Source: Ostreococcus lucimarinus (taxonomy: Eukaryota). From it: a stretch of 64,000 bases of DNA. The position numbers and the translations under genes were made by a program. Within the stretch, counting starts at the first letter, position 1. Every line of letters begins with the position of its first letter. The notes beneath the pieces were generated by a model that saw only the letters and a list, made by a program, of their open reading frames with translations, searched no databases and was not told where the DNA came from. The stretch lies in the NCBI GenBank assembly GCA_000092065.1, contig CP000593.1; one strand, 5' to 3'. Shown here piece by piece: positions 734-5,898 of the stretch.

Positions 734-2215
734 ATGCGACGCTCGGCGTGTTCGCGCCAACACCGCGAGCTCTGTGAGAATTTGTTCTCGTTCGCGCACA
801 GAGCGCGCGCACGAGCCCGCACATCGACCGCATTCGCGACGGTGGACGAAGCGTTGCGGGACTTCGTCAATCACGAAAAGAGCGGCGTCCCGCGAAACGC
901 TGGGACGGATACGACGGACGGATTCGATCTCGGACGCATGCATAGATTGTTGCGAGACTTTGACGATCCACACAGGGCGTATAACACGATACACGTGTCG
1001 GGAACGAAGGGGAAAGGAACGACGGTTTCCGTGCTCGCGAGCGTCCTGCGCGCCGCTGGATTACGAATCGGCACGTATAAGAGCCCTCACGTGTATACCG
1101 TGGCGGAAAGGATTCGGAGTAGCGAAAGTGATGCGTCTGCACAAGTTCTCGACGTACTGCGCGATTTAGAGCGAGAGATAAAGTCTGCACAACAGCGTGA
1201 GGGCGGTCAGTTGTCGTACTTTGAAGTCCTCACGGCGCTCGCCTTTGCATACTTTAAAAAGGCAAACGTCGATTTAGCGCTCGTGGAAGTCGGTCTCGGG
1301 GGAAGTCGAGACGCCACAAACGTACTCGCGGCAGAAAATCTAGAAGCAGCGGTGATCACACACATAGGTGAGGAACACCTCGAAGCGCTCGGCGGTTCGA
1401 TTGAGACAATCGTAGACGCAAAAGCTGGCATCGCGCATAAAGGTCGTCCGGTGTTTTGTGCCCCAAACGTGGACGAACGAATAACAACAATGTTGAAAAC
1501 TGCGCTCCGCGCGCGTGGGGCGAACGTTATCGATAACGTATGCGTAGACACGCGTCTCGTGCGGTATCACGTGGAAGACTCGATCGCTTCGCAGGACGTC
1601 GACATCGACATCAAAGTGGATGGTAAAATAGCGTCCACCCTTTCGAACGTTCGAATTCCTCTCGCTGGGCCGCACCAGCGCGAGAACATAAGTCTTGCGC
1701 TTCGTGTTCTGTGGTGGCTTCGCGCTCAAAACAAAATCGACGCATCTCTGGAAGATATTCGAAGAGGCTTGGAAACGACGCGCAGTCCGGGGAACTTTGA
1801 AGTATTTGAGACGAGTGGAGGGCCCACGATGATTGCTGATGGCGCGCACACCAAAGGTTCCGCTCGAGTTCTCGTGAACACGATTCGTGAGGTTTATCCC
1901 GACCGAAAACTTTTGTTCGTCGTAGCGATGGCGGACGACAAGGATCACGGAGGATTTATTGAAGAGCTGTACAGGGCGGATCCCGTCGGTGTGGTGTGCA
2001 CTCAAATGCAAGTCGCCGGCGCATCGTCTCGAACGACGCCCGCGAAGACGCTCGCGAAGGCTTATATCGGCCCAGCGCATGGTCCGACTCCCACCTCAGA
2101 AGATGATTTCGAGAAGGCCTTGAAAGGAGCGCTCTCGCGCGGCGACGACGAGATTGTCGTGGTCGTGACGGGATCACTTTACACGTTCAAAGCGCTTAGC
2201 AAGGCGTTACTGTAG
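734..2215 (+). CDS. FPGS: Folylpolyglutamate synthase / dihydrofolate synthase (Mur-ligase fold, FolC family)
   Basis: 493-aa ORF starting at ATG 734. Mur-ligase P-loop IHVSGTKGKGTT. FolC-type N-terminus (RDFDDPHRAYNTIHV) and C-terminal domain (VVTGSLY). Single exon. Confidence 0.88.
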   Translation: MRRSACSRQHRELCENLFSFAHRARARARTSTAFATVDEALRDFVNHEKSGVPRNAGTDTTDGFDLGRMHRLLRDFDDPHRAYNTIHVSGTKGKGTTVSVLASVLRAAGLRIGTYKSPHVYTVAERIRSSESDASAQVLDVLRDLEREIKSAQQREGGQLSYFEVLTALAFAYFKKANVDLALVEVGLGGSRDATNVLAAENLEAAVITHIGEEHLEALGGSIETIVDAKAGIAHKGRPVFCAPNVDERITTMLKTALRARGANVIDNVCVDTRLVRYHVEDSIASQDVDIDIKVDGKIASTLSNVRIPLAGPHQRENISLALRVLWWLRAQNKIDASLEDIRRGLETTRSPGNFEVFETSGGPTMIADGAHTKGSARVLVNTIREVYPDRKLLFVVAMADDKDHGGFIEELYRADPVGVVCTQMQVAGASSRTTPAKTLAKAYIGPAHGPTPTSEDDFEKALKGALSRGDDEIVVVVTGSLYTFKALSKALL

Positions 2216-2278: not shown

Positions 2279-4156
2279 CTAGAACTCAGCGCTACCCGGG
2301 TAACGGGGGAAAGGAATGGCGTCACGAATGTTCTCCACACCTGTGACGTACTGAACGAGGCGTTCAAAACCGAGGCCGAAACCGGCGTGCGGCTGCGAAC
2401 CGTATCGTCTCAAATCTAAGTACCACCAGTACGACTCCTTTTCCAAACCAACCTCTTCGATTCGGCGCTCCAAGACATCAAGGCGTTCTTCTCTTTGGCT
2501 ACCACCCATCAACTCACCAACGCGGGGCACCAAGACGTCCATTGCGGCGACGGTTTTGTTGTCGTCGTTGAGACGCATGTAGAACGCCTTGATATCTTTC
2601 GGATAATCGCGCACGATCACGGGGCGATCTTTGAAGACTTCTTCTGAGATGTACCGCTCGTGCTCGCTCTGAAGATCCGATCCCCATTCGATTGGGAACT
2701 CAAACTTCTTCTTCGCGTTCAACACGTGCTCGACGGCTTCGGTGTACGTGATGCGCGCAAACTCTTGCGACGCGACGTTTCGAAGTCGCTCTCTCAGGTT
2801 GTCTTTGGAGATGTTCTTCTCGAAGAATTCAAGATCTTCGTCGCAGTGCTCGAGGACGTGGTTCAGGCAATACTTCAAGTACGCTTCTGCGCAATCCATG
2901 TCGTCGTTCAAATCCGCGAACGCGAGTTCGGGCTCTACCATCCAAAACTCAGCCAGGTGGCGCGACGTGTTGCTATTCTCCGCGCGGAACGTCGGACCGA
3001 AGGTGTAGATGTCGTTGACCGCGCAAGCCATGATTTCACCGTTCAATTGCCCAGACACGGTCAAATAAGACGGTTTGCCGAAGAAGTCTTGAGAATAGTC
3101 GATGGAACCATCCTTATTCTTCGGCAAGTCGGACGACGGGCGATTGTTCTTCAGCGCCTCGACGCTCGCCTTGAGATCTAAAAGCTTCGCCACGGCCTCA
3201 TCAACTTGCTCTTTCGTCGCGTCTCCCGCTTTCTTCGCCTCCTTCAGGGCCTTCACCGCGTCACCCTGTGCCTTCACCATGGCTTCTTGCTCGTCCACGA
3301 CCGAGGCCGGCGTCGTCCACTCGCCGGCGCCGAAGCCGTTCAACAGCGTCGTCACTTGAAACTGTTCCCCAGCGCCTTCGCAATCCGACGCGGTGATGAT
3401 CGGCGTGTTGGCGTATAAAAACCCATGCTCTTGAAAGAACGTGTGCGTCGCGTACGCCAACTGATTGCGCACGCGAGCCACGGCGCCGATGGTGTTTGTG
3501 CGAGGTCGCAAGTGCGCGATGCTTCGAAGATATTCCAGCGTGTGTCGCTTCTTTTGCAGCGGATACGTCTCCGGATCCGCCGTTCCGATGACATCAATCT
3601 CCTCCACCGCCAATTCCGCCGCTTGCTTCCCTCCCGGACTCGCCACGAGTTTCCCCTTCACCCTGAGCGCCGCCCCCGTGGAGACGCCGCCCGCGTCGAG
3701 CGCGTCCCACGCCGCGCTTCCCTCGTTCACCACCGCTTGCATCCCCGAGATCGCGCTCCCATCGTTCAGGTCGATGAACGCCATTCCCTTCTGCGTCCGC
3801 ACCGATCGCGCCCACCCTCGCAGTTCCAACGCCTCGCCCACGCGCGACGCCCCCCCGTCGTTTCCCTTCACGCGCGCGATGCGCTCGGGTCGTCCGTACG
3901 TCGCCCGCGTCGCCACCGCGCGCGCGCTCCGCGCGTGTTTGATCGCTCCCGGCGTCGCTCTCGCCCGCATCGCGAGCGCACCGAGTCGCGCGCCGAGTCG
4001 CGCGCCGCGCACCGCGTCCACGGACGCGCGCGACATCATCGCGCCGTCGCCCGCGGGGACGTCCAGTGACGTCGCGCGCCCGTAATTCGTCGTCGGCAAA
4101 GGCGCGGTCGGTCGCCGAGACCATAAAATCGCGTTCGACGGCCACTTGCGAACCAT
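2279..4156 (-). CDS. Asparaginyl-tRNA synthetase, bacterial/organellar type, with an R/A-rich presequence and an inserted WHEP-like helix-turn-helix
   Basis: Class IIb motifs FRAENSNTSRHLAEFWMVEPE and GGSQREER. Anticodon-binding OB fold. The region ASDCEGAGEQF ... DFFGKPSYLTVSGQLNGE parallels E. coli AsnRS. ATG at 4156; alternative start MMSRAS at about 4039. Confidence 0.9.
   Translation of the reverse strand: MVRKWPSNAILWSRRPTAPLPTTNYGRATSLDVPAGDGAMMSRASVDAVRGARLGARLGALAMRARATPGAIKHARSARAVATRATYGRPERIARVKGNDGGASRVGEALELRGWARSVRTQKGMAFIDLNDGSAISGMQAVVNEGSAAWDALDAGGVSTGAALRVKGKLVASPGGKQAAELAVEEIDVIGTADPETYPLQKKRHTLEYLRSIAHLRPRTNTIGAVARVRNQLAYATHTFFQEHGFLYANTPIITASDCEGAGEQFQVTTLLNGFGAGEWTTPASVVDEQEAMVKAQGDAVKALKEAKKAGDATKEQVDEAVAKLLDLKASVEALKNNRPSSDLPKNKDGSIDYSQDFFGKPSYLTVSGQLNGEIMACAVNDIYTFGPTFRAENSNTSRHLAEFWMVEPELAFADLNDDMDCAEAYLKYCLNHVLEHCDEDLEFFEKNISKDNLRERLRNVASQEFARITYTEAVEHVLNAKKKFEFPIEWGSDLQSEHERYISEEVFKDRPVIVRDYPKDIKAFYMRLNDDNKTVAAMDVLVPRVGELMGGSQREERLDVLERRIEEVGLEKESYWWYLDLRRYGSQPHAGFGLGFERLVQYVTGVENIRDAIPFPRYPGSAEF
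3143..3295 (-). other. WHEP-TRS-like insertion inside the AsnRS catalytic domain
   Basis: EAMVKAQGDAVKALKEAKKAGDATKEQVDEAVAKLLDLKASVEAL matches the WHEP consensus (V.AQGD.VR.LKA.KA.K..VD.AV..LL.LKA). Confidence 0.6.
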
Positions 4157-4273
4157 TGAGTTGATCGTTTTTTTCTCGTGTGGACGACTTTTTCGCTCGA
4201 CGCGCGTCGTCCGTCGGGCGTCGCGGTCGACGCGCGCGACGGGACGGGAGACGGCGTCGGGGGCGTGACGCGC

Positions 4274-5398
4274 ATGCGGGACGAGATCGCGCTCGTCGAG
4301 CGCGCGCGCGTGGTCGTGGCGGACGACGGCGCGCGCGCGCGGCGAGACGCGGTCGCGCGGGCGACGACGCGACGGTTGATTTTGACGTTCGAGACGACGG
4401 CGACGGCGGCGGCGGCGGGGAGCGCGGCCGAGGGTGGGACGGTGATCGAGTACGACGACGTGGCGGCGTGCGAACGAGCGCAGGAGTCGCGGTCGACGCT
4501 GGGTGGGTTGTTCAGGAGGCGCGAGCGCGGGGTGGCGCTGGTTTTGACGAGCGGGAGACGGGTGACGATCGGCGCGCGAGGGGCGAGCGCGGAGGAGGTG
4601 TGCGGGAAAATCGAGAACGCGATCGTAAAGTATAAGAGACAGAAAGCGACGGCGGCGGTGGAGACGACGCGGGAGGATGCGAGGCGGCGGGCGAGCGGCG
4701 CGTCGGCGGCGACGGCGGGCGTCGGCGGCGCGGTGAATCGACAGCTCGAACGCGCGGAGGCGACGAATAAGACGATGGACGAGGCGTTTACCGATCTCAG
4801 AGCGCTCATGGCGAAGGCTGGAGAGATGGTGACGCTCGCCGAGCGGCTCGCGGAGTCGATGGACGGGAAAGGGGAAAGTTCAGAGCTTCAGCGTCTCGTG
4901 CTCAGTCTCGGGATTACGAGTCCGGTGACGCGCGCGAACGCGGGGGCAGAGTTTCATCGAGAATTAGGTAAACAATTAGCGGATTGGATAACGCCCGTGG
5001 TGCAAAAATCGAACGGCATCATTACCGTCACCGATGCGTTCTGTTTGTTCAATCGCGCGCGAGGCACGGAGTTAGTTTCCCCGCAAGACATGCTTCGCGC
5101 GAGCGAATCGTGGGAGTCGCTCGGGGTCGATTTGCACTTGCGTAAATTTGAAAGCGGAGTGATGGTGATTCATACCGTAGAACGCACAGACGAGGAAGCG
5201 TGCGCGCGATTGCTCGCGCGATTGCCGTCTTACGAGCATTCAATCGATTCGTACGAGGCGGCGCAAATATTAGCGACGACGCCCGAAATAGCGCTCGAGT
5301 ACCTCTACATGGCAGAAAGCCGAGGCGTTTTGTGTCGAGACGACGGACCTGCGCAGATGAGATTTTATGCAAACATGTTCGAGGCTAGATTGACGTAG
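4274..5398 (+). CDS. VPS36: ESCRT-II subunit Vps36/EAP45 (GLUE-like N-terminus plus tandem winged-helix C-terminus)
   Basis: The C-terminus (NRARGTELVSPQDMLRASESWESLGVDLHLRKFESGVMVIH ... CRDDGPAQMRFYANMFE) closely parallels the human EAP45 C-terminus (CLVNRARGMELLSPEDL...CRDDSVEGLRFYPNLF). The ORF-track start 4178 is GTG; the first ATG is 4274. Confidence 0.75.
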   Translation: MRDEIALVERARVVVADDGARARRDAVARATTRRLILTFETTATAAAAGSAAEGGTVIEYDDVAACERAQESRSTLGGLFRRRERGVALVLTSGRRVTIGARGASAEEVCGKIENAIVKYKRQKATAAVETTREDARRRASGASAATAGVGGAVNRQLERAEATNKTMDEAFTDLRALMAKAGEMVTLAERLAESMDGKGESSELQRLVLSLGITSPVTRANAGAEFHRELGKQLADWITPVVQKSNGIITVTDAFCLFNRARGTELVSPQDMLRASESWESLGVDLHLRKFESGVMVIHTVERTDEEACARLLARLPSYEHSIDSYEAAQILATTPEIALEYLYMAESRGVLCRDDGPAQMRFYANMFEARLT

Positions 5399-5469: not shown

Positions 5470-5898
5470 TTAAATGTCATTAATGTCGTCGAAATCGAAG
5501 AAGTCATCGTTCTCGTCGCGCTCTTCTTCGAACGTATCCGTATCGTTCACGCGGAAAGTGTCCGGGAGTTCCCCGTACGCCTTCAACGAGCGCGCCTCGT
5601 CGGCCAAGTACTTCAAGATGACGTCCGCCTTTTCGTCTTGAAAGTCCCGCAAGCCCAACAGGATGATGTCCCCGGTGTTCACCCAAACCTTTTTCCGCAT
5701 TTTACCGCGAATGTGACACAAACGCTTCACCCCATCGATGCACTGCGCCTCTAAGCGCCCGTTCCCGAGCATGCGCAACACTTGCGCGTACTCTTGACCG
5801 TCCTCTTTGAAGATGAGTTCGCGCTTCTCGTCTTCGCCGCCCCCTTTCCCGCGACGACGGTTCTTCCCTCCCTTTCCCTTGGAGTTACTCTTCGGCAT
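5470..5898 (-). CDS. EIF1A: Translation initiation factor eIF1A
   Basis: 142 aa. Basic N-terminal tail ([14 protein letters not shown]), S1/OB core ([56 protein letters not shown]) and acidic tail ([11 protein letters not shown]). ATG verified. Confidence 0.95.

What the first reader, a model, noticed from the sequence alone, without database searches (positions are those of the whole stretch)
3143..3295. WHEP-type helix-turn-helix inserted into a bacterial-type asparaginyl-tRNA synthetase
Between ASDCEGAGEQF and DFFGKPSYLTVSGQLNGE, where E. coli AsnRS has a short loop, this enzyme carries ~50 aa matching the WHEP-TRS consensus (AQGDAVKALKEAKKAGDATKEQVDEAVAKLLDLKASVEAL). WHEP domains are classically appended to metazoan GluProRS, TrpRS, HisRS, GlyRS and MetRS. 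Finding one internal to an organelle-type AsnRS with a presequence is unusual and suggests independent domain capture.
Basis: partly seen in the sequence, partly recalled or inferred. Interest (0 to 1): 0.55.

Follow-up and report, generated by a model that had tools for sequence, protein, structure and literature searches.

The report
WHEP domain inside algal asparaginyl-tRNA synthetase
The Ostreococcus asparaginyl-tRNA synthetase really does carry a small WHEP helix-turn-helix domain inside its catalytic core, but this is an old, green-lineage-wide feature first described in land plants in 2020, and the only new points are that green algae combine it with an organelle-targeting-like leader and that the public gene model wrongly removes it as an intron.

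Summary
ORF 2279..4156 (-) encodes a bacterial-type AsnRS. Residues 292-337 (nt 3146..3283) match Pfam WHEP-TRS above the curated cutoff (40.3 vs 32.5 bits). The best PDB sequence hits to the insert are human HisRS, EPRS, TrpRS and MetRS WHEP domains, and AlphaFold predicts a helix-turn-helix.

The insert replaces a loop of about 23-33 residues found in bacterial AsnRS and in plant organellar AsnRS (SYNO). It is coding sequence under purifying selection (dN/dS about 0.07).

A WHEP inserted between motifs 1 and 2 of plant AsnRS was published by Saga et al. 2020 (PMC7564348). The algal insert sits at the same site and is homologous to the one in Vitis cytosolic AsnRS (SYNC1). Homologous same-site inserts occur across Chlorophyta. 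So this is an ancient shared trait of green plants, not a local capture.

Three points are modestly new:
- In chlorophytes the WHEP-bearing enzyme also carries a basic, presequence-like N-terminus, and its core groups with SYNO. This contradicts the published "cytosolic forms only" rule.
- The public O. lucimarinus gene model splices the WHEP out as a false intron.
- The alga's WHEP is more canonical than the land-plant one.

Localisation and WHEP function remain inferred. Interest is low to moderate.

The parts
2279..4039 (-). Most likely CDS of the asparaginyl-tRNA synthetase, from M40 to the stop codon, 586 aa. The open frame continues upstream to 4156.
   Evidence: ORF. NCBIfam AsnRS equivalogs at 637.6 and 612.3 bits. 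The start is placed at M40/M41 because orthologues such as P0036 begin there, and because the 99%-identical P0001 has an unrelated, different-frame N-terminus upstream of 'MMSRASVD'.
3899..4039 (-). Presequence-like N-terminal extension (residues 40-86): Arg/Ala/Ser/Thr-rich and almost free of acidic residues.
   Evidence: Composition over residues 41-87: 47 aa, R9 K1 D1 E0, net +9. It evolves fast, with dN/dS 0.6-1.1 against 0.03-0.13 for the core. Bacterial AsnRS lack it. Arabidopsis SYNO has a similar extension (+8) and Vitis SYNC1 an acidic one (-4). No targeting predictor was available.
3587..3823 (-). OB-fold anticodon-binding domain (residues 112-190).
   Evidence: Pfam PF01336, 40.2 bits against a cutoff of 27.
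3347..3544 (-). First part of the class II catalytic domain (about residues 205-270): motif 1 region (GFLYANTPIITASD) and the CEGAGEQF loop.
   Evidence: Pfam tRNA-synt_2 is split in two stretches. This part aligns to 6pqh residues up to 187. Residues are invariant across Mamiellales.
3134..3346 (-). Whole insertion relative to bacterial AsnRS (residues 271-341): a variable Gly/Ala linker, the WHEP, then a short variable linker.
   Evidence: Gap in the 6pqh alignment. Insert lengths: 91 here, about 23 in bacteria, 28-33 in SYNO.
3146..3283 (-). WHEP-TRS domain proper (residues 292-337), a helix-turn-helix.
   Evidence: PF00458, 40.3 bits (45.6 alone) against a cutoff of 32.5. Top PDB sequence hits are the human HisRS, EPRS, TrpRS and MetRS WHEP domains. 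AF2 gives helix 20-46, turn, helix 52-74 at pLDDT about 82-85. Foldseek top hits are 2djv, 8yor_E (rmsd 0.7 A, 45% id), 1x59 and 6o76. Q297, G298, V301, K305, G311, K315, L325 and K329 are invariant in Mamiellales.
3119..3277 (-). The 159-nt segment (V294-K346) that the public O. lucimarinus gene model removes as a GT..AG intron. It is really coding and makes up most of the WHEP.
   Evidence: P0096 is 100% identical to the window protein where aligned but lacks these 53 residues. The borders are not conserved in sister clades. dN/dS is 0.07-0.08 between two other Ostreococcus clades. Transcript-derived orthologues (MMETSP P0101, P0393, P0395) retain the segment.
2282..3133 (-). Second part of the catalytic domain (residues 342-625), with motif 2 (FRAENSNTSRHLAEFWMVEPE) and motif 3 (GFGLGFERLV).
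   Evidence: Pfam PF00152, 215 bits. Aligns to 6pqh 191-490 at 382 bits. dN/dS 0.03-0.04.

Best explanation
This is the nuclear gene for the bacterial/organelle-type asparaginyl-tRNA synthetase of Ostreococcus lucimarinus.

The protein is made with a basic N-terminal extension that looks like an organellar presequence. It carries a canonical WHEP helix-turn-helix of about 46 residues spliced into a surface loop of the catalytic domain. That loop lies after motif 1 and the CEGAGEQF loop and before motif 2.

The insertion is not a local event. It is the same insertion seen in land-plant cytosolic AsnRS (SYNC1-3), and homologous same-site inserts occur across Chlorophyta. It therefore dates to before the chlorophyte-streptophyte split.

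The most parsimonious history has three steps:
- The ancestral green-plant AsnRS had both the presequence and the WHEP.
- Chlorophytes keep that state.
- Streptophytes duplicated the gene. One copy (SYNC) kept the WHEP and lost the presequence. The other (SYNO) kept the presequence and lost the WHEP.

Functionally (inferred, not shown), the WHEP acts as in other eukaryotic synthetases, as an auxiliary RNA-binding (tRNA-affinity) or protein-docking module next to the active site. In streptophytes only the cytosolic copy retained it, and in Mamiellales it is under strong purifying selection. The algal enzyme therefore probably works in the cytosol as well as in the organelles.
For: Shown:
- AsnRS identity.
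- WHEP identity by profile, PDB sequence hits and predicted fold.
- Insertion site between motifs 1 and 2, replacing a loop of about 23-33 aa.
- Coding status and constraint: WHEP dN/dS 0.07-0.08, presequence 0.6-1.1.
- Same-site homologous insert in Vitis 'asparagine--tRNA ligase, cytoplasmic 1': a single continuous phmmer stretch at 59% identity and hhalign 99%.
- Same-site inserts of 87-103 aa in Ulva, Tetraselmis, Botryococcus, Trebouxia, Tetradesmus, Micromonas and Bathycoccus.
- Homology of those inserts: hhalign 98.1%, E=1.3e-13 against the core-chlorophyte inserts alone. Seven of 10 core-chlorophyte inserts hit PF00458 at E<=1, best 1.9e-11.
- Basic N-terminal extensions (net +3 to +9) in every chlorophyte model scored: two Ostreococcus, Micromonas, Bathycoccus, Ulva, Tetraselmis, Botryococcus, Trebouxia and one unnamed.
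- The SYNO group (Arabidopsis OVA8, Klebsormidium, Chara and others) has no WHEP.
- In a core-only NJ tree SYNO sits within the chlorophyte sequences that carry the same-site insert (bootstrap 60-63 for the joint clade, 83 for SYNO+Mamiellales), with SYNC1 outside.
- An O. tauri orthologue is annotated 'chloroplast/mitochondrial precursor'.

Prior description in plants: PMC7564348.
Against: - Localisation was not tested and no targeting predictor was available. The presequence call rests on composition and fast evolution only.
- I could not scan a whole Mamiellales genome, so a second AsnRS (for example a eukaryote-type cytosolic one) is not excluded.
- The tree is neighbour-joining on 418 columns, with only one named SYNC sequence and modest deep support (22-63%). 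SYNC may sit outside through long-branch effects, so 'WHEP lost in SYNO' versus 'chlorophytes are SYNC orthologues that kept or regained a presequence' is not resolved.
- The full-length AlphaFold model was poor (pLDDT 51), so the position of the WHEP relative to the tRNA acceptor arm is unknown.
- Foldseek E-values for the 98-residue model are not significant (0.6-2.4), and generic alpha-hairpins such as MexA also match.
- Three of 10 core-chlorophyte inserts give no Pfam WHEP hit. The Tetradesmus model has a long Q-rich N-terminus rather than a presequence-like one.
- No experiment defines what any AsnRS WHEP does. Saga et al. state its role is unknown.
Confidence: 0.7

Rival explanations
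1. The enzyme is organelle-only. The WHEP-bearing protein serves only chloroplast and mitochondrion, a separate cytosolic AsnRS is encoded elsewhere in the genome, and the WHEP therefore has a function inside organelles.
For: Presequence-like N-terminus in the Mamiellales and the named core-chlorophyte orthologues scored. The core groups with SYNO. An O. tauri orthologue is annotated 'chloroplast/mitochondrial precursor'.
Against: In streptophytes the organellar copy is precisely the one without a WHEP. That argues the domain is dispensable in organelles and valuable in the cytosol. Among the 150 best 50%-identity cluster representatives, no named chlorophyte cluster without the insert was found. 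The named eukaryotic clusters without WHEP belong to haptophytes, dinoflagellates and stramenopiles. From my own knowledge of Peeters et al. 2000, green plants replaced the eukaryote-type cytosolic AsnRS with the organelle-derived one. None of this is a whole-genome test.
Confidence: 0.25
2. Independent domain capture in this alga or in the Mamiellales. The WHEP entered this AsnRS separately from the one in land-plant cytosolic AsnRS.
For: In the core tree the algal enzyme groups with WHEP-less SYNO rather than with WHEP-bearing SYNC1. Taken alone, that could suggest two insertions. The same loop also hosts unrelated inserts in other lineages (P0213, P0215, P0198, P0224), so it is an insertion hot spot.
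Against: Same loop position, the same flanks (QVTTL... / ...P..DG.IDY), similar length and alignable sequence in Vitis SYNC1 and throughout Chlorophyta. One ancient insertion plus one loss is simpler than many parallel captures of the same 50-residue domain at one site.
Confidence: 0.05
3. The segment is an intron, or an optionally spliced in-frame 'exitron', as in the public O. lucimarinus gene model, so the mature enzyme lacks the WHEP.
For: The NCBI model P0096 removes exactly 159 nt with GT..AG borders.
Against: The frame stays open. dN/dS is 0.07-0.08 in this segment between sister clades. The GT and AG are absent at the homologous positions in those clades. Transcript-derived proteins from Micromonas and Tetraselmis include the domain. 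The same model also starts inside the OB fold, so it is unreliable.
Confidence: 0.02
4. The insert is only a generic Lys/Ala/Glu-rich coiled-coil or low-complexity spacer that happens to resemble WHEP.
For: The composition is K/A/E-rich. Foldseek also returns unrelated alpha-hairpins with similar E-values. Weak Pfam side hits to OEP and DUF2570. Some chlorophyte inserts are degenerate and Ala-rich.
Against: The Pfam score is above the curated cutoff. The four best PDB sequence hits are all WHEP domains, with the QG..V..LK...K..V...V..LL.LK signature aligned. The model superposes on the HisRS WHEP at 0.6-0.7 A with 44-45% identity. Signature residues are invariant across Mamiellales.
Confidence: 0.03

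Closest known systems
Land-plant cytosolic AsnRS SYNC1/2/3 (Arabidopsis At5g56680, At3g07420, At1g70980) with an internal WHEP; Saga et al. 2020, Genes 11:1056 (PMC7564348)
   Same: Bacterial/organelle-derived AsnRS core. WHEP inserted between motifs 1 and 2 at the same loop position. The insert is homologous (Vitis SYNC1: 59% identity over one continuous alignment, hhalign 99%).
   Different: SYNC proteins have a short acidic N-terminus and are cytosol-only. The algal protein has a basic presequence-like extension. Its core is closer to SYNO (68.9% to Arabidopsis SYNO against 63.9% to Vitis SYNC1 on 418 columns). Its WHEP is more canonical (40.3 bits against 26.7 bits for Vitis). The paper states that only cytosolic forms carry the insert, and its main text and held supplements do not mention green algae in connection with AsnRS.
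Plant organellar AsnRS SYNO / OVA8 (Arabidopsis At4g17300), dual-targeted to chloroplast and mitochondrion
   Same: N-terminal basic extension. Core sequence groups with it (bootstrap 83 with Mamiellales). An O. tauri orthologue is annotated after it.
   Different: SYNO has a 28-33-residue loop and no WHEP in any streptophyte sampled, from Klebsormidium to Arabidopsis.
Metazoan WHEP-TRS domains of HisRS, GluProRS, TrpRS, GlyRS and MetRS (PDB 1x59, 1fyj, 1r6t, 2djv)
   Same: Same Pfam family, the same signature residues and the same predicted helix-turn-helix.
   Different: Those are N- or C-terminal appendages or inter-enzyme linkers. Here the domain is internal to the catalytic domain, and it has a turn four residues longer (KKAGDATKE against K-ASAE). 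The 2024 AARS Online domain table does not list AsnRS among WHEP carriers.
Bacterial AsnRS (e.g. Elizabethkingia 6pqh, Thermus 5zg8)
   Same: Full-length homology (495 bits to 6pqh), the same OB fold and the same class IIb catalytic core.
   Different: No presequence. Only about 23 residues between the two flanking motifs where the alga has 91.

Membership tests
Asparaginyl-tRNA synthetase, class IIb (TIGR00457 / NF003037) | Full-length match to the curated equivalog model above its cutoff | tested here: met
   NF003037 637.6 bits (cutoff 414). TIGR00457 612.3 bits (cutoff 342.6). AspRS and LysRS models fall far below their cutoffs.
Asparaginyl-tRNA synthetase, class IIb (TIGR00457 / NF003037) | N-terminal OB-fold anticodon-binding domain plus class II catalytic domain with motifs 1, 2 and 3 | tested here: met
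   PF01336 40.2 bits and PF00152 215 bits. The motif sequences are visible and invariant in the alignments.
Asparaginyl-tRNA synthetase, class IIb (TIGR00457 / NF003037) | Asparaginylation of tRNA-Asn | not testable with these tools
   Needs an enzyme assay.
WHEP-TRS domain (Pfam PF00458) | Profile match above Pfam's gathering score | tested here: met
   40.3 bits in the whole protein and 45.6 bits on the insert, against 32.5.
WHEP-TRS domain (Pfam PF00458) | Helix-turn-helix of about 50 residues resembling solved WHEP domains | tested here: met
   AF2 helices 20-46 and 52-74, pLDDT about 82-85. Foldseek top hits are WHEP domains, with rmsd 0.6-0.7 A to the HisRS WHEP. E-values are not significant for so small a fold.
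WHEP-TRS domain (Pfam PF00458) | RNA or protein binding by the domain | not testable with these tools
   Inferred from other synthetases only. Conserved lysines K305, K315 and K329 are compatible with it.
Plant AsnRS with internal WHEP (Saga et al. 2020) | [quoted passage not shown] | tested here: met
   Alignment with Vitis SYNC1 and bacterial references. hhalign 99%.
Plant AsnRS with internal WHEP (Saga et al. 2020) | [quoted passage not shown] | tested here: not met
   The algal protein and the other chlorophyte orthologues scored carry basic extensions of 30-92 residues, net +3 to +9, like SYNO (+8) and unlike SYNC1 (-4). Actual localisation was not tested.
Organellar AsnRS, SYNO/OVA8 type | N-terminal transit presequence | tested here: inconclusive
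   Composition and rapid evolution fit. No predictor or experiment was available.
Organellar AsnRS, SYNO/OVA8 type | Core sequence groups with SYNO | tested here: met
   NJ bootstrap 83 for Mamiellales+SYNO. 68.9-70.3% core identity to Arabidopsis and Klebsormidium SYNO, against 63.9% to SYNC1. The method is crude.
Organellar AsnRS, SYNO/OVA8 type | Short loop, no WHEP | tested here: not met
   91-residue insert with a WHEP, against 28-33 residues in SYNO.

The most novel reading that the evidence does not exclude
In chlorophyte green algae a single WHEP-bearing, presequence-bearing AsnRS is the only AsnRS and serves cytosol, chloroplast and mitochondrion. This is the ancestral green-plant state. 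The organellar SYNO of streptophytes lost the WHEP secondarily after gene duplication. The internal WHEP would then be the 'eukaryotising' adaptation that let an endosymbiont-derived synthetase take over cytosolic duty. It is a cytosol-directed module carried along into organelles, not a marker of cytosol-only isoforms as published.
Probability: 0.4. Interest if true: 0.45.

Novelty: new member of a known kind. Interest (0 to 1): 0.3.

Why it matters
The headline feature, a WHEP inside AsnRS, is already published for land plants and is visible in precomputed Pfam annotation, so it is not a discovery.

The algal data still refine the picture in three ways:
- They push the insertion back to before the chlorophyte-streptophyte split.
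- They contradict the generalisation that only cytosolic isoforms carry it.
- They give a natural experiment. After duplication, the WHEP was kept in the cytosolic copy and is absent from the organellar copy. That points to a cytosolic role for a domain whose function in AsnRS is unknown.

Practically, the public O. lucimarinus gene model is wrong. It is truncated at the N-terminus and the WHEP is removed as an intron. Homology-guided gene callers may make the same error elsewhere.

Tried and rejected
- **Full-length AlphaFold model.** Built on a 20-sequence Mamiellales alignment, it reached only mean pLDDT 51 and the catalytic domain did not fold. It could not place the WHEP relative to the active site or tRNA.
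- **Foldseek on the insert model.** WHEP domains ranked first but E-values were not significant, so this is supportive only.
- **AsnRS gene number in green algae.** Literature searches for gene counts or multi-compartment targeting in Ostreococcus or Chlamydomonas found nothing specific.
- **Direct search for a second Mamiellales AsnRS.** The homology tools list only the best 120-150 hits and no eukaryotic genome collection can be scanned. The indirect result was that no named chlorophyte cluster without the insert appeared among the 150 best representatives.
- **Intron reading of the public model.** Rejected on dN/dS, non-conserved borders and transcript evidence.
- **Low-complexity reading.** Rejected on the Pfam cutoff and the PDB hits.
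- **Choanoflagellate same-site insert.** Tested for WHEP homology with hhalign. Probability 2%, so no support.
Full report
**What is there**

The finding lies inside a 625-codon open frame on the minus strand, 2279..4156. The quoted flanks are present.

Pfam finds three domains:
- an OB-fold anticodon-binding domain (residues 112-190)
- a class II D/K/N catalytic domain split in two
- a WHEP-TRS domain between the two halves (PF00458, residues 292-337), at 40.3 bits against a curated cutoff of 32.5, or 45.6 bits when the insert is scanned alone

NCBIfam identifies the protein as asparagine--tRNA ligase at 612-638 bits, well above cutoff. AspRS and LysRS models fall far below theirs.

Against solved structures the best match is a bacterial AsnRS, 6pqh. 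Its alignment breaks exactly at the insert: query 111-270 and 342-625 correspond to chain 30-187 and 191-490. About 70 residues (271-341, nt 3134..3346) are therefore extra.

**Is it really a WHEP?**

Several lines agree.
- A sequence search of the 81-residue insert region against all PDB chains returns the WHEP domains of human HisRS (1x59, 8yor), GluProRS (1fyj) and TrpRS (1r6t) as the top hits, and that of MetRS (2djv) further down the list. The QG..V..LK / K..V...V..LL.LK signature is aligned, with a turn four residues longer.
- AlphaFold on the insert with 13 Mamiellales homologues gives two helices (20-46, 52-74) joined by a short turn, at pLDDT about 82-85. The same two helices appear in the otherwise poor full-length model.
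- Foldseek puts WHEP domains at ranks 1-3 and 7. The HisRS WHEP superposes at 0.6-0.7 A with 44-45% identity. E-values are not significant for so small a fold, and generic alpha-hairpins such as MexA also score.
- Q297, G298, V301, K305, G311, K315, L325 and K329 are invariant across Mamiellales.

**Organism, gene model and coding status**

The NCBI protein 'predicted protein [Ostreococcus lucimarinus CCE9901]' (P0096, 448 aa) is 100% identical to the window protein wherever they align. The window is therefore from that genome.

That public model is wrong in two ways.
- It starts at M124, inside the OB fold.
- It omits V294-K346 (nt 3119..3277, 159 nt, GT..AG). That segment is most of the WHEP.

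The segment is coding, for four reasons.
- The frame is open.
- Between two other Ostreococcus clades (loci L001 and L003) it shows 13 synonymous against 4 non-synonymous differences, giving dN/dS 0.07-0.08.
- The GT and AG are absent at the homologous positions in those clades.
- Transcript-derived orthologues from MMETSP keep the domain.

The first 39 codons of the long ORF are probably not translated. A 99%-identical metagenomic orthologue has an unrelated, different-frame N-terminus up to 'MMSRASVD', and other orthologues start at that methionine. The likely CDS is 2279..4039.

Gene order is conserved in other Ostreococcus: eIF1A, EAP30, AsnRS, folylpolyglutamate-synthase-like.

**Is it known?**

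Yes. Saga et al. [quoted passage not shown] They find it in the three cytosolic forms SYNC1-3 and not in the organellar SYNO. They state that it is conserved among plants, seen only in plants, and that its role is unknown. Neither the main text nor the held supplements mention green algae in connection with AsnRS.

Public annotation already shows PF00458 on nearly all Mamiellales orthologues. The O. tauri orthologue is named 'S15/NS1, RNA-binding', which to my recollection is the InterPro superfamily that contains WHEP.

The feature remains obscure, however. [quoted passage not shown]

**Distribution and history**

An exhaustive search of 50%-identity cluster representatives, followed by measuring the distance between the flanking motifs, gave this pattern:
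- bacterial AsnRS have about 23 residues there
- Vitis 'asparagine--tRNA ligase, cytoplasmic 1' (P0191; 59% identical, one continuous alignment) has 93
- several unnamed clusters have 89-145

A second search from one of those unnamed clusters brought in named chlorophytes: Tetradesmus, Ulva, Tetraselmis, Botryococcus and Trebouxia. All have an insert of 87-103 residues at the same site. All except Tetradesmus, a 1,040-residue model with a long Q-rich N-terminus, also have an N-terminal extension of about 95-120 residues before the OB fold.

Profile-profile comparison supports homology of the inserts.
- Mamiellales insert against core-chlorophyte inserts alone: 98.1%, E=1.3e-13.
- Against the Vitis insert with flanks: 99%.
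- Seven of 10 core-chlorophyte inserts hit PF00458 at E<=1, best 1.9e-11.

The Vitis WHEP itself scores only 26.7 bits, below Pfam's cutoff. The algal copy is the more canonical.

A third search from the Chara protein showed it belongs to the SYNO/OVA8 'chloroplastic/mitochondrial' group. That group runs from Klebsormidium to Arabidopsis, and none of its members has a WHEP.

I built a neighbour-joining tree of the core only (418 columns, insert and N-termini removed, 300 bootstraps).
- SYNO falls within the chlorophyte sequences that carry the same-site insert (bootstrap 60-63 for the joint clade).
- SYNO is sister to Mamiellales (bootstrap 83).
- Vitis SYNC1 lies outside, with a choanoflagellate sequence and an unnamed one (bootstrap 95).

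This is a crude tree with a single named SYNC sequence, so the topology is a lead and not a result. Every reading of it places the insertion before the chlorophyte-streptophyte split.

**The presequence**

From M41 to the conserved YGRPERIA there are 47 residues: 9 Arg, 1 Lys, 1 Asp and no Glu. The other chlorophyte models scored (a second Ostreococcus clade, Micromonas, Bathycoccus, Ulva, Tetraselmis, Botryococcus, Trebouxia and one unnamed) carry extensions of net charge +3 to +9. Arabidopsis SYNO has +8, Vitis SYNC1 has -4, and bacteria have none. The region evolves almost neutrally, with dN/dS 0.6-1.1, as transit peptides do.

The combination 'WHEP plus presequence-like leader' is thus the rule in the Chlorophyta sampled here. 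It contradicts the published statement that only cytosolic forms carry the insert. Localisation itself was not tested.

**How it most likely works**

Shown:
- It is a complete AsnRS with all class II motifs under strong constraint (dN/dS 0.03-0.13).
- It has a constrained WHEP helix-turn-helix in a surface loop after motif 1 and the CEGAGEQF loop.
- It has a fast-evolving basic leader.

Inferred from established knowledge of WHEP domains in GluProRS, MetRS, HisRS, TrpRS and GlyRS: the WHEP adds non-specific RNA (tRNA) affinity or a protein-docking surface next to the active site.

After duplication in streptophytes only the cytosolic copy carries the WHEP, so its selective value seems to lie in the cytosol. 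Its strong conservation in Mamiellales therefore suggests that the algal enzyme also works in the cytosol. If so, one gene may serve up to three compartments. A review notes that the indirect Asn-tRNA pathway does not operate in mitochondria, so an imported AsnRS is needed there.

Whether the alga has another AsnRS could not be tested. Among the 150 best cluster representatives, the named eukaryotic clusters without WHEP belong to haptophytes, dinoflagellates and stramenopiles, not chlorophytes.

**Verdict**

The novelty claim is not. This is a known, conserved feature of green-plant AsnRS.

The residual value is threefold:
- an extension of the known distribution to chlorophytes, with the unexpected pairing with a presequence
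- a plausible ancestral-state scenario in which SYNO lost the WHEP
- a clear error in the public gene model

Interest is 0.3. I classify it as a new member of a known kind.

Noticed in passing
window 3119..3277 and 3785..4039 (- strand): The public NCBI model of this gene (O. lucimarinus CCE9901 'predicted protein', 448 aa) starts at internal M124, inside the OB fold. It also removes the WHEP as a 159-nt GT..AG intron. Both features look like artefacts of gene prediction (possibly guided by bacterial AsnRS, which lack the insert, though I did not check how the model was made).
   Followed up: yes
window 4040..4156 (- strand): The first 39 codons of the long ORF are probably 5' UTR or intergenic. 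A 99%-identical orthologue (P0001) reads this stretch in another frame, and other orthologues start at the methionine equivalent to M40. The divergently transcribed EAP30-like gene starts about 235 nt away.
   Followed up: partly
P0212 (Diaphanoeca grandis, EukProt EP00040): A choanoflagellate transcriptome encodes a bacterial-type AsnRS with a Lys-rich helical N-terminal appendage and a 91-residue helical insert at exactly the same loop. It groups with Vitis SYNC1 in the core tree (bootstrap 95 for the trio with P0204). The insert is not detectably WHEP (hhalign 2%). Possible explanations are algal gene transfer, contamination or convergence.
   Followed up: partly
P0396 / P0193 (Phaeomonas parva, MMETSP1163): A stramenopile bacterial-type AsnRS carries an N-terminal GST_C domain above Pfam cutoff (30.5 bits against 24.9) and no WHEP. 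This is a different way of adding a eukaryotic appendage to the same enzyme. The AARS Online GST table does not list AsnRS.
   Followed up: partly
P0213, P0215, P0198, P0224 (representative clusters): The same loop between the CEGAGE.F and FFG..LTVSGQL motifs holds unrelated inserts of 99-172 residues in other lineages. The two largest (P0213, P0215) have no Pfam match. The loop appears to be an insertion hot spot in AsnRS.
   Followed up: no
P0191 (Vitis SYNC1) vs window 3146..3283: The land-plant AsnRS WHEP scores below Pfam's gathering cutoff (26.7 bits) while the Ostreococcus one passes (40.3 bits). Standard domain annotation will therefore miss the feature in many plants and find it in prasinophytes.
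   Followed up: partly
window 734..2215 (+), 4178..5398 (+), 5470..5898 (-); loci L001-L004: Gene order eIF1A / EAP30 (ESCRT-II-like) / AsnRS / Mur-ligase-type folylpolyglutamate synthase is conserved between this window and two other Ostreococcus clades assembled from marine metagenomes.
   Followed up: partly
P0201 (unnamed, 667 aa): A WHEP-bearing AsnRS (19 bits) whose N-terminus begins with a hydrophobic, signal-peptide-like stretch followed by a basic region. It groups with unnamed chlorophyte-like sequences. It might come from an alga with a secondary green plastid.
   Followed up: no
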